Notes: generated by a model from the letters alone, not told the origin. Positions 27,539 through 28,299 are shown, numbered from the stretch's first letter. The stretch is 41,227 bases of DNA from a virus (IMGVR_UViG_2541047931_000011:1-41227), one strand, 5' to 3'. Numbers and translations: made by a program.

Positions 27539-27712
27539 TTATGTCGGTGATACTTCGTCGCTGTCTCGCCACACGTCCTCCTTTTCCTGCGGTAGTGGTA
27601 ACACCCCTGTTGGTGTTCTTTCACACCGGAGACACCATCGATTCCAGTAAGGCTGTCCTGGTCGAAAGCGATCGTCTTCCTTTCGCTCTCCACATCGATA
27701 ACAGTGCTTCAT
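27539..27712 (-). CDS. Small zinc-ribbon protein (possibly NinD/NinE-like)
   Basis: 57-aa ORF with CxxC...CxxC ([34 protein letters not shown]...); ATGA overlap with the methyltransferase stop. Confidence 0.4.
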
Positions 27713-28299
27713 GCGATCACCATTTTGCATGGTTTAATCGCCATGCCGGGAGCCAGTTCAAAATCGGAGTCGCACTGATTTCCCCACATATCCCACCCGG
27801 TCACTTTGTCGCGGCTAAATAACTCACAGCGCGGCACGTCGCCAAGCAACTTAGCTAACATGTCTCTTACGATCGGTGGTTTTGCACTGTGCTCCATTCT
27901 CGGTGCGGTAAAGTGCTGGCATATTGAAGCGTCCATTCTCTCAGGTAACCGCCCTCGAACGGCAAACAAGCAATCCTCGCTATTTGCCCGGGTCATATGC
28001 CCCATTCCGATCGCACTGTTGCCTTTGTGCTTATTGGTTTTGTGCCAGGTAAAGCCTTTCATAGTCATCAACCTGAATCCCCACGCCTCAACTACCTTTA
28101 GCGCTTCGGCTGGCTGTGTCGGCACCCACCACATCGCTAACAAGCAAGATTCTGGATCCGCTAAATCCCATACTGGCAGTCGGCAAATGTCCTGAACATT
28201 CATAACATCGTATTTATGTCCAGCACCGCGATTGCCATCGTTGGCTTTGTCGCGATATTGCCAAGGTGGATCTGCGTAAATAAGTCGGTATTTGTTCAT
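27709..28299 (-). CDS. Orphan DNA N6-adenine methyltransferase (MT-A70/Dam-like, DPPW motif)
   Basis: 196-aa protein with motif IV YADPPW near the N-terminus; start placed at [17 protein letters not shown] with ATGA overlap to the NinB stop; no adjacent nuclease-like ORF. Confidence 0.7.

What the first reader, a model, noticed from the sequence alone, without database searches (positions are those of the whole stretch)
27709..28299. Orphan adenine methyltransferase in the nin region, translationally coupled to NinB
A DPPW-motif methyltransferase occupies the position of ninC in lambda. It has ATGA overlaps on both sides (NinB stop upstream, small zinc-ribbon ORF downstream) and no partner nuclease ORF nearby. 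Phage-borne orphan methyltransferases typically protect progeny DNA from host restriction or alter gene expression.
Basis: partly seen in the sequence, partly recalled or inferred. Interest (0 to 1): 0.4.

Follow-up and report, generated by a model that had tools for sequence, protein, structure and literature searches.

The report
Orphan MT-A70 methyltransferase in prophage nin region
This is an ordinary, already catalogued phage gene: a stand-alone adenine methyltransferase of the MT-A70 family that sits where phage lambda carries ninC. It most likely methylates the phage's own DNA at GATC sites during lytic growth.

Summary
A 196-codon gene on the minus strand (28299..27709) encodes a full-length MT-A70-family (Pfam PF05063, E=6.7e-25) amino-methyltransferase with an intact DPPW motif. 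It lies exactly between NinB and NinD, with ATGA overlaps on both sides. Homology to lambda breaks at the NinB stop and resumes at the NinD start, so this is a clean cassette swap for ninC.

No restriction enzyme, second methyltransferase or defence gene was found in the 41-kb prophage, so the gene is an orphan.

It is not new. The exact protein is in public databases on 431 contigs, and 39 of 5426 complete E. coli genomes carry a copy at >95% nucleotide identity in the same NinB|MT-A70|NinD arrangement. Homologues occur in epsilon15, phiV10 and Stx phages.

The ATGA overlaps are the norm in this operon (7 of 13 junctions), so they are not special to this gene.

Characterised prokaryotic relatives are GATC-specific DNA m6A enzymes (Serratia phage BZS1 p32, Tn1549 M.EfaBMDam, M.EcoGV). 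The 65%-identical Stx-phage enzyme M.EcoPA8orf6770P was instead reported to methylate 16S rRNA, but only with a partner, PNB-2, which this window lacks.

Best reading: a delayed-early, Dam-like DNA adenine methyltransferase. The target sequence is not proven. Interest is low.

The parts
27709..28299 (-). MT-A70-family (beta-class) SAM-dependent adenine-N6 methyltransferase, 196 aa, DPPW at residues 10-13; orphan
   Evidence: Pfam PF05063 E=6.7e-25, full length. PHROG 359. PADLOC MTase_II. PDB sequence hits: MTA1 E=1.2e-10, METTL3 E=1.3e-6. Family-invariant residues D10, P11, W13, K140, P141, E159, F161, R163, W172 and G173 are all present. The exact sequence is in public databases on 431 contigs.
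28296..28739 (-). NinB/Orf recombination mediator; its TGA stop overlaps the methyltransferase ATG (ATGA)
   Evidence: Pfam PF05772 E=2.4e-54. Junction sequence. 94% nucleotide identity to lambda ninB, ending exactly at 28296.
27539..27712 (-). NinD, 57 aa, four-cysteine zinc-ribbon-like; its ATG overlaps the methyltransferase TGA (ATGA)
   Evidence: Pfam PF17466, 1-57/57, E=6.8e-40. Junction. Lambda homology resumes at 27714.
27715..28295 (.). Cassette-specific DNA with no nucleotide homology to lambda, mEpX2 or ev017. It replaces ninC, with the mosaic joints at the gene boundaries.
   Evidence: blastn breakpoints. Annotated lambda and mEpX2 regions.
29685..29708 (-). tR2-like intrinsic terminator candidate just downstream of the helicase gene and upstream of the nin genes. 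It suggests that the methyltransferase depends on N-antiterminated transcription from PR.
   Evidence: Consensus scan: 8-bp stem, 6 GC pairs, T-rich tail. Consensus match only; function is inferred from the lambda layout.
33008..33036 (-). PR-like sigma-70 promoter candidate (TTGACA-17-GAAAAT) next to the cI-like repressor gene; the presumed source of the nin-operon transcript
   Evidence: 10/12 match. The cI-like repressor at 33084-33716 has HTH_3 plus Peptidase_S24 domains.

Best explanation
The gene encodes a solitary beta-class, MT-A70-family, SAM-dependent adenine-N6 methyltransferase. It is carried as a swap-in cassette at the ninB-ninD junction of a lambdoid enterobacterial prophage.

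Proposed mechanism:
1. It is transcribed as a delayed-early gene of the PR operon, downstream of the replication genes and a tR2-like terminator and upstream of Q. Its translation is probably coupled to ninB. It would therefore be made during lytic growth, while phage DNA replicates, and not in the lysogen.
2. It most likely acts on DNA as a Dam-like enzyme that methylates the adenine of GATC. This would keep rapidly replicating phage DNA fully methylated when host Dam is limiting or absent.
3. The benefit would be protection of progeny DNA from methylation-sensitive GATC-cutting restriction systems and from MutH nicking at unmethylated GATC. It would also let the phage move between hosts with and without Dam.

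What is shown: family membership, intact motifs, orphan status, cassette architecture and gene order. What is inferred: expression timing, DNA as the substrate, GATC as the target, and the biological benefit.
For: Family and motifs:
- Pfam MT-A70 over its full length.
- Alignment to the solved MTA1 and METTL3 catalytic domains covers DPPW, HSxKP and ELFxR.
- These positions are invariant in 29 homologues.

Orphan status:
- There is no other amino-methyltransferase motif in the window.
- No nuclease or defence hits were found in the neighbouring or unknown ORFs.
- Close homologues in Cronobacter, Pantoea, Salmonella and Erwinia phage 59 also lack an adjacent nuclease.

Specificity, by homology to characterised prokaryotic MT-A70 enzymes:
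- Serratia phage BZS1 p32 alone made plasmid DNA MboI-resistant and DpnI-sensitive in a dam- host, so it methylates GATC (PMC7556043).
- Its 75%-identical homologue HK639_35 is 45% identical to the window protein.
- Tn1549 M.EfaBMDam is GATC-specific (cited in PMC7556043).
- M.EcoGV, described as highly similar to the PA8 enzyme, methylated GATC in vivo (PMC10810198, PMC6602927). The PA8 enzyme is 65% identical to the window protein.

Slot logic:
- In ev017, the same position right after NinB, with the same 4-nt overlap, holds an unrelated phage Dam (PF05869) methyltransferase. Records for N7, HF4s, IME10 and mEp332 also list a methyltransferase beside NinB, but its family was not tested.

Timing:
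- Operon layout, terminator and promoter candidates, and tight gene overlaps.
Against: - No experiment bears on this protein or its >90% relatives.
- The closest biochemically studied homologue, M.EcoPA8orf6770P, showed only background activity on DNA in vitro, including dam- DNA. With PNB-2 it preferred 16S rRNA (PMC10810198).
- The loop following the conserved TW (residues 86-103, [18 protein letters not shown]) differs from the PA8/TL-2011b loop, and HK639_35 has a 25-aa insertion there. Specificity may therefore not transfer across these clades.
- GATC is not enriched in the window. It is depleted to 0.53 of expectation, which says nothing either way.
- The structure model was too poor (pLDDT 44.5) to add anything.
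- Promoter and terminator calls are consensus matches only.
Confidence: 0.5

Rival explanations
1. It is an RNA (16S rRNA) m6A methyltransferase, like the Stx-phage M.EcoPA8orf6770P-PNB-2 holoenzyme. It would modify host ribosomes to bias translation during induction.
For: The window protein is 65% identical over 187 aa to the PA8 catalytic subunit. The PA8 holoenzyme was more than 13-fold more active on RNA than on DNA and preferred 16S rRNA within the 30S subunit (PMC10810198). The nearest solved relatives include the RNA enzyme METTL3.
Against: - The RNA preference in PA8 was conferred by PNB-2; the subunit alone was weak and non-specific (PMC10810198).
- tblastn finds no PNB-2, PNB-1 or PerC-like homologue anywhere in the window at E<=1, apart from one marginal 53-aa match to the PerC-like protein (E=0.023) inside a tail gene.
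- The window protein lacks the PA8 C-terminal tail: the alignment ends at PA8 residue 189 of 208. The authors link that tail to PNB-2 binding, and they note that shorter isoforms in non-STEC strains come without PNB-2.
- The gene sits in the lytic PR operon, not in the int-proximal region under a stationary-phase promoter.
- The modified rRNA base was never identified in that study.
Confidence: 0.12
2. It is a relaxed or non-specific DNA adenine methyltransferase that gives broad anti-restriction protection, analogous to M.EcoGII or the Serratia prophage OS31 enzyme.
For: The protein is very small (196 aa) and has no separate target-recognition domain. The PA8 subunit alone showed weak, substrate-unspecific SAM use (PMC10810198). 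Prophage-borne non-specific adenine methyltransferases exist (PMC7544214, PMC7556043, PMC3299994).
Against: Known non-specific enzymes are not described as MT-A70 members in the papers read, but their sequences were not tested here. All prokaryotic MT-A70 members with a defined DNA specificity are GATC-specific (PMC7556043, PMC6602927). BZS1 p32 left HinfI and Hin1II sites sensitive, so it was not promiscuous.
Confidence: 0.12
3. It is an inactive remnant, or a SAM-binding protein with no methyltransferase role, carried passively in the mosaic nin region.
For: Other lambdoid phages manage with NinC, another methyltransferase, or nothing in this slot. Some database names are only 'S-adenosylmethionine-binding protein'.
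Against: - The ORF is full length and the same size as its homologues.
- All family-invariant motif residues are retained.
- Length and sequence are conserved at 70-93% identity across several genera.
- DPPW-to-APPA abolished the phenotype of the PA8 homologue (PMC10810198).
Confidence: 0.04

Closest known systems
RefSeq 'MT-A70 family methyltransferase' WP_001046389.1 and its 90% cluster (E. coli, Salmonella, E. albertii, Enterobacter prophages)
   Same: Nucleotide identity is 99.3% for WP_001046389.1 and >95% across the 39 complete E. coli genomes that carry it. All 15 listed genomes show the same NinB | MT-A70 | NinD arrangement. The exact 196-aa sequence is already on 431 public contigs.
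   Different: Nothing of substance. The surrounding prophage differs: P22-like in strain 09-00049, a myovirus-type tail module here.
M.EcoPA8orf6770P (Stx2a phage PA8) with PNB-2; M.EcoGV of E. coli O104:H4
   Same: MT-A70 family with a DPPW motif, 65% identity, prophage-borne and orphan (PMC10810198).
   Different: The PA8 gene is int-proximal and co-transcribed with the 143-aa PNB-2 partner, which directs it to 16S rRNA. It also has a longer C-terminal tail. The window gene is in the nin region and has no PNB-2. M.EcoGV was scored as GATC-specific in vivo (PMC6602927).
Serratia phage BZS1 p32 / Escherichia phage HK639 gp35 / Tn1549 M.EfaBMDam (GATC-specific beta-class MT-A70 DNA methyltransferases)
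   Same: Same Pfam family and motif order, and all are orphan genes on mobile elements. GATC specificity was shown experimentally for BZS1 p32 and M.EfaBMDam (PMC7556043).
   Different: Only 45% identity to HK639 gp35, which has a 25-aa insertion in the central loop. Those genes lie near the integrase, and HK639 also carries a PNB-2 homologue two genes upstream (54% identity).
Phage Dam of the PF05869 family (tested in ev017; the M.EcoVT2Dam type by recollection)
   Same: In ev017 it occupies the same slot immediately after NinB, with the same 4-nt overlap, and is an orphan adenine methyltransferase. Records for N7, HF4s, IME10 and mEp332 also list a methyltransferase there. M.EcoVT2Dam is GATC-specific (PMC6602927).
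   Different: It is an unrelated protein family. The window protein has no PF05869 match. This is a positional and probably functional analogue, not a homologue.
Lambda NinC (PAPS-reductase-like, 290 aa)
   Same: It occupies the same interval between the NinB stop and the NinD start, with overlapping stop and start codons.
   Different: No sequence or family relationship. It is not a methyltransferase.
Eukaryotic MT-A70 enzymes (METTL3-METTL14, ciliate MTA1-MTA9)
   Same: Homologous catalytic domain, DPPW motif IV, beta-class motif order (PMC7544214).
   Different: Those act as obligate heterodimers with a degenerate paralogue and extra RNA- or DNA-binding subunits. No paralogue or partner is encoded in the window.

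Membership tests
MT-A70 family (Pfam PF05063), beta-class amino-methyltransferases | Profile match above the curated threshold over the whole catalytic domain | tested here: met
   88.4 bits against a cutoff of 23.9; residues 4-175 match model positions 1-172/172.
MT-A70 family (Pfam PF05063), beta-class amino-methyltransferases | Catalytic motif IV DPPW near the N-terminus, with the SAM-binding motifs C-terminal to it (permuted beta order) | tested here: met
   DPPW is at residues 10-13. HSAKP (137-141), ELFSR (159-163) and WGNQ (172-175) align with MTA1 or are invariant or near-invariant in the family.
MT-A70 family (Pfam PF05063), beta-class amino-methyltransferases | SAM-dependent methyl transfer to adenine N6 | not testable with these tools
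   Needs an enzyme assay or a methylome.
Orphan (solitary) methyltransferase, as opposed to a Type II restriction-modification system | No cognate restriction endonuclease encoded next to the methyltransferase | tested here: met
   The neighbours are NinB and NinD. No nuclease other than NinG/Rap and no defence-model hits were found in the window ORFs scanned. A partner elsewhere in the host chromosome cannot be excluded from a 41-kb window.
Dam-like (GATC-specific) DNA m6A methyltransferases, a functional class | Methylation of the adenine in GATC | not testable with these tools
   Supported only by homology to characterised GATC-specific MT-A70 members: 45% identity to HK639 gp35 (a stand-in for BZS1 p32) and 65% to the M.EcoGV-like PA8 enzyme (PMC7556043, PMC6602927).
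M.EcoPA8orf6770P-PNB-2 type 16S rRNA methyltransferase holoenzyme | Homologous catalytic subunit | tested here: met
   65% identity over 187 aa, E=1e-91.
M.EcoPA8orf6770P-PNB-2 type 16S rRNA methyltransferase holoenzyme | Adjacent, co-transcribed PNB-2 specificity subunit | tested here: not met
   tblastn of PA8 PNB-2 and PNB-1 against the whole window gave no PNB-2 hit and one chance-level PNB-1 hit (E=0.73, 25 aa) at E<=1. The upstream gene is NinB.
M.EcoPA8orf6770P-PNB-2 type 16S rRNA methyltransferase holoenzyme | Extended C-terminal tail proposed to bind PNB-2 | tested here: not met
   The alignment ends at window residue 187 and PA8 residue 189 of 208. The window tail is short and unrelated.
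Phage Dam family PF05869 (T1/VT2 type) | Profile match | tested here: not met
   Only PF05063 was reported for the window protein. The ev017 protein in the same slot is PF05869.
Lambda NinC | Sequence homology to NinC / the PAPS reductase fold | tested here: not met
   No nucleotide homology between 27715 and 28295 and no PAPS-reductase Pfam hit. Only the position is shared.

The most novel reading that the evidence does not exclude
The repeated placement of two unrelated methyltransferase families (MT-A70 here; PF05869 Dam in ev017) immediately after NinB, with a stop/start overlap, might reflect a functional partnership rather than a recombination hotspot. The ssDNA-binding NinB/Orf protein could recruit the methyltransferase to replication or recombination intermediates. 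Separately, this naturally PNB-2-less enzyme could turn out to be a dual DNA/RNA m6A writer.
Probability: 0.06. Interest if true: 0.5.

Novelty: already known. Interest (0 to 1): 0.15.

Why it matters
It matters little as a discovery. The gene, its family and its orphan status are already in public annotation, and phage-borne Dam-like methyltransferases are a textbook theme.

Its modest value is as a clean natural test case for an open disagreement in the literature. Prokaryotic MT-A70 enzymes have been scored as GATC DNA methyltransferases (M.EcoGV, BZS1 p32), while one close relative was reported as an rRNA methyltransferase that needs PNB-2. This version comes without any PNB-2, PerC-like or other small partner gene, so a methylome from expressing it alone would show what the bare catalytic subunit does.

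Tried and rejected
- Structure prediction. AlphaFold2 on a 29-sequence alignment gave mean pLDDT 44.5 and pTM 0.42. The alignment was too shallow (all sequences at least 68% identical), so no fold search was run on it. Family assignment rests on sequence profiles instead.
- Search for the PA8 partner proteins. tblastn of PNB-2 and PNB-1, the TL-2011b and epsilon15 PerC-like activators, and Erwinia phage 59 gp66 against the window found nothing credible. The best hit was E=0.023 over 53 aa, inside the 669-aa ORF at 8863-10872, which weakly matches a minor tail protein family. It was dismissed as chance.
- A 66-aa ORF upstream (29138-29338), considered as a possible winged-helix partner. It has no Pfam or PADLOC hit and matches only an unknown-function PHROG. 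It has no similarity to PNB-2. It is absent from the Cronobacter locus, and nothing is annotated between the helicase gene and ninB in E. coli 09-00049, although both keep NinB-MT-A70. Rejected.
- Fang et al. 2012 (PMC3879109) could not be opened. The M.EcoGV specificity is therefore cited second-hand from PMC10810198 and PMC6602927.
- The 216-aa reading from GTG 28359 was rejected. Homologues and the Pfam model start at the ATG at 28299.
- Plus-strand ORFs antisense to the gene (27806-28195 and 27451-27822) were treated as spurious. They were not searched; they lie antisense to genes with strong family matches.
- GATC frequency as a clue to specificity was uninformative.

Full report
**What is there**

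The interval 27709-28299 is one gene on the minus strand. It starts at the ATG at 28299 and stops at the TGA at 27711-27709. It encodes 196 aa beginning [15 protein letters not shown]. Several profile searches place it firmly:
- Pfam MT-A70 (PF05063) end to end: residues 4-175 to model 1-172/172, 88.4 bits against a threshold of 23.9, E=6.7e-25.
- PHROG 359 'DNA methyltransferase', E=4.9e-107.
- A PADLOC Type II methyltransferase model, E=4.9e-70.
- NCBIfam has no model for it.

Among solved structures, the best sequence matches are the ciliate DNA m6A enzyme MTA1 (E=1.2e-10), METTL4, and the METTL3 catalytic domain (E=1.3e-6). Those alignments run through DPPW, the HSxKP segment and ELFxR. 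In an alignment with 28 homologues of 68-93% identity, the motif residues D10, P11, W13, K140, P141, E159, F161, R163, W172 and G173 are invariant, and all are present here. The upstream in-frame GTG at 28359 is not the start, because homologues and the Pfam model begin at the ATG.

**The neighbourhood**

The window is a lambdoid prophage. Its parts are:
- A contractile-tail morphogenesis block: small terminase, portal, DUF3383, Baseplate_J, gpV apex.
- Lysis genes and a Q antiterminator.
- A nin region ordered NinB, this gene, NinD, NinE, NinX, NinF, NinG, NinH, then a calcineurin-like phosphatase.
- An O-like replication protein and a DnaB-like helicase.
- A cI-like repressor.
- A PL arm with an N-like protein, a gp17-like exclusion protein, a Rad52-family recombinase, anti-RecBCD and Ea22-like genes.

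NinB (28739..28296) ends GCTGCATGA, and that ATG is the methyltransferase start. The methyltransferase ends ATCGCATGA, and that ATG starts NinD, a 57-aa protein with four cysteines. They are not distinctive, however: 7 of the 13 junctions from the helicase gene to Q are 4-nt ATGA/GTGA overlaps, five of the remaining six overlap by 8-34 nt, and the last is an 11-nt gap.

**It is a cassette in the ninC slot**

blastn against lambda shows 94% identity through ninB, ending exactly at window 28296. Identity of 93% resumes at 27714, two bases before the NinD start. Lambda has the 873-bp ninC between those points.
- Phage mEpX2 has nothing in the slot.
- Phage ev017 has a 175-aa methyltransferase of the unrelated phage Dam family PF05869 there, again overlapping the NinB stop by 4 nt. 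The records for N7, HF4s, IME10 and mEp332 also list a methyltransferase beside NinB, but its family was not tested.

The position after NinB is thus a mosaic joint that repeatedly hosts an orphan adenine methyltransferase. GC content is unremarkable: 50.3% for the gene against 49.7% for the window.

**Orphan status**

- The only [DNS]PP[YFWH] motif in any open frame of at least 80 aa is this one.
- Pfam, PHROG and PADLOC scans of the flanking and unassigned ORFs found no restriction endonuclease or defence component. The only nuclease is NinG/Rap.
- Close homologues elsewhere are likewise not next to nucleases: Cronobacter at 93% identity, Pantoea at 83% and Erwinia phage 59 at 82.5%. In all three the gene again directly follows NinB.
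- The epsilon15, Salmonella and Stx-phage relatives sit near the integrase, and one clade sits downstream of Q.

**It is already known**

The exact 196-aa sequence is in the public protein collection on 431 contigs. It carries names such as 'MT-A70 family methyltransferase', 'S-adenosylmethionine-binding protein' and 'N6-adenosine-specific RNA methylase IME4', from E. coli, Salmonella, E. albertii and Enterobacter. Thirty-nine of 5426 complete E. coli genomes have a copy at >95% nucleotide identity, and all 15 listed ones are annotated NinB | MT-A70 family methyltransferase | NinD. tblastn finds the family in 517 phage records, including epsilon15 (78%), phiV10 (70%) and about 110 Stx2a phages.

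**What it most likely does**

Two bodies of literature bear on this.
- *GATC DNA methylation.* Prokaryotic MT-A70 members have been shown to be GATC-specific DNA m6A methyltransferases. Serratia phage BZS1 p32, expressed alone in a dam- host, made DNA MboI-resistant and DpnI-sensitive while other m6A-sensitive sites stayed cleavable. Tn1549 M.EfaBMDam is also GATC-specific (PMC7556043). HK639 gp35, which that paper gives as 75% identical to p32, is 45% identical to the window protein. M.EcoGV of E. coli O104:H4 is listed as GATC-specific (PMC6602927) and is described as highly similar to the PA8 enzyme (PMC10810198).
- *16S rRNA methylation.* Gong, Chakraborty and Koudelka reported that the Stx-phage enzyme M.EcoPA8orf6770P, which is 65% identical to the window protein, is nearly inactive and non-specific on its own. 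It forms a 1:1 complex with the product of the upstream gene, PNB-2, and then prefers 16S rRNA in 30S subunits. They also note that shorter isoforms in non-STEC bacteria lack both the C-terminal tail and PNB-2 (PMC10810198).

I fetched PA8. Neither PNB-2 nor PNB-1 has a credible match in the window, and neither do the PerC-like activators that precede the gene in TL-2011b and epsilon15. The window protein also lacks the PA8 tail.

Other clades carry small putative nucleic-acid-binding neighbours. HK639 gp37 is a PNB-2 homologue at 54% identity, and Erwinia phage 59 gp66 and a Pantoea 115-aa protein are 30% identical to each other. The window version, like the Cronobacter and E. coli 09-00049 versions, is 'bare'.

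*Timing.* A PR-like promoter candidate lies at 33036..33008. A tR2-like terminator candidate lies at 29708..29685, just after the helicase gene. A strong terminator follows Q. Together with the uninterrupted overlapping ORFs, this places the gene in the delayed-early PR operon, expressed while phage DNA replicates. These are consensus matches and an inference from the lambda layout.

*Commitment.* The gene is a Dam-like DNA adenine methyltransferase that tops up GATC methylation on replicating phage DNA. From general knowledge, host Dam is limiting during phage bursts, unmethylated GATC is a substrate for MutH and for MboI/DpnII-type restriction, and enterobacterial phages counter-select GATC. 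My estimates are:
- Family membership is essentially certain.
- DNA m6A activity: about 0.7.
- GATC as the target: about 0.45-0.5.

The rRNA reading (about 0.12) and a relaxed-specificity DNA enzyme (about 0.12) are the live rivals. An inactive remnant is unlikely (about 0.04).

**What failed**

- The AlphaFold model was unusable (pLDDT 44.5) because the alignment was too shallow. No fold search was attempted.
- Fang et al. 2012 was not available.

**Verdict**

The feature is ordinary and already annotated. Its only residual interest is as a partner-less natural variant for settling the DNA-versus-rRNA question in prokaryotic MT-A70 enzymes.

Noticed in passing
window 1-41227 (GATC sites); few in 30000-41227: GATC is depleted to 0.53 of its Markov-2 expectation (118 observed, 224 expected). 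It is the second most depleted 4-bp palindrome after CTAG (0.18). Only 14 sites fall in the last 11 kb, the PL arm. This fits the known GATC avoidance of enterobacterial phages but was not linked to the methyltransferase.
   Followed up: partly
window 28296-28299; L007 2236-2239 (ev017); L003, L008 and L010 (Erwinia phage 59, Cronobacter, Pantoea): The gene immediately after NinB is a methyltransferase in many lambdoid phages, from two unrelated families (MT-A70 and PF05869 Dam). In the three loci read in coordinates besides the window (ev017, Cronobacter, Pantoea) it overlaps the NinB stop by 4 nt; in Erwinia phage 59 a 9-nt gap separates the two genes. This could be a recombination hotspot or a functional link; it was not resolved.
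   Followed up: partly
L006 29972-30400 (HK639 gp37); L005 2851-3282 (PA8 PNB-2); L003 3585-3959; L010 3088-3435: Small putative nucleic-acid-binding proteins recur next to MT-A70 genes in other clades. HK639 gp37 is 54% identical to PNB-2. TL-2011b and epsilon15 have PerC-like proteins. Erwinia phage 59 gp66 and a Pantoea 115-aa protein are 30% identical to each other. The window has none of them.
   Followed up: partly
window 29138-29338 (-), with 29335-29661, 28884-29126 and 28717-28887 (-): Four small ORFs of unknown function lie between the helicase gene and ninB (PHROGs 5903, 7185, 343 and 1603). The 66-aa one looks winged-helix-like by eye but has no Pfam or PADLOC hit. Nothing is annotated in the 275-bp gap between the helicase gene and ninB in E. 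coli 09-00049, and Cronobacter has different ORFs there.
   Followed up: partly
window 1-1038 (+): An Acyl_transf_3 family acyltransferase (E=3.1e-23) lies at the left edge on the opposite strand to the tail genes. It is a likely O-antigen-modifying lysogenic-conversion gene.
   Followed up: no
window 35652-36017 (+); 33641-34117 (+); 35092-35562 (+): A gp17-like superinfection-exclusion protein (PF17420, E=1.2e-55) sits in the PL arm. Two conserved unknown ORFs (PHROGs 2651 and 1636) lie next to cI and N in positions where accessory (moron-type) or exclusion genes often sit. Neither has a PADLOC hit.
   Followed up: no
window 1472-22151 (-): The morphogenesis module is of contractile-tail type (Baseplate_J, gpV apex, DUF2612, DUF3383) and is joined to a lambda/P22-like early region. 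The closest E. coli matches are prophages of strain TUM2820 (95.9% identity over 68% of the query) and EPEC E2348/69 (98% identity over 61%). The exact methyltransferase protein is also recorded from Salmonella, so the host genus of the window is not settled.
   Followed up: no
window 25394-26134 (-): A calcineurin-like Ser/Thr phosphatase (NinI/PP-lambda type) lies directly upstream of Q with an ATGA overlap. Its true start is ambiguous: candidates are the ATG at 26059 and the TTG/ATG at 26134/26131.
   Followed up: no
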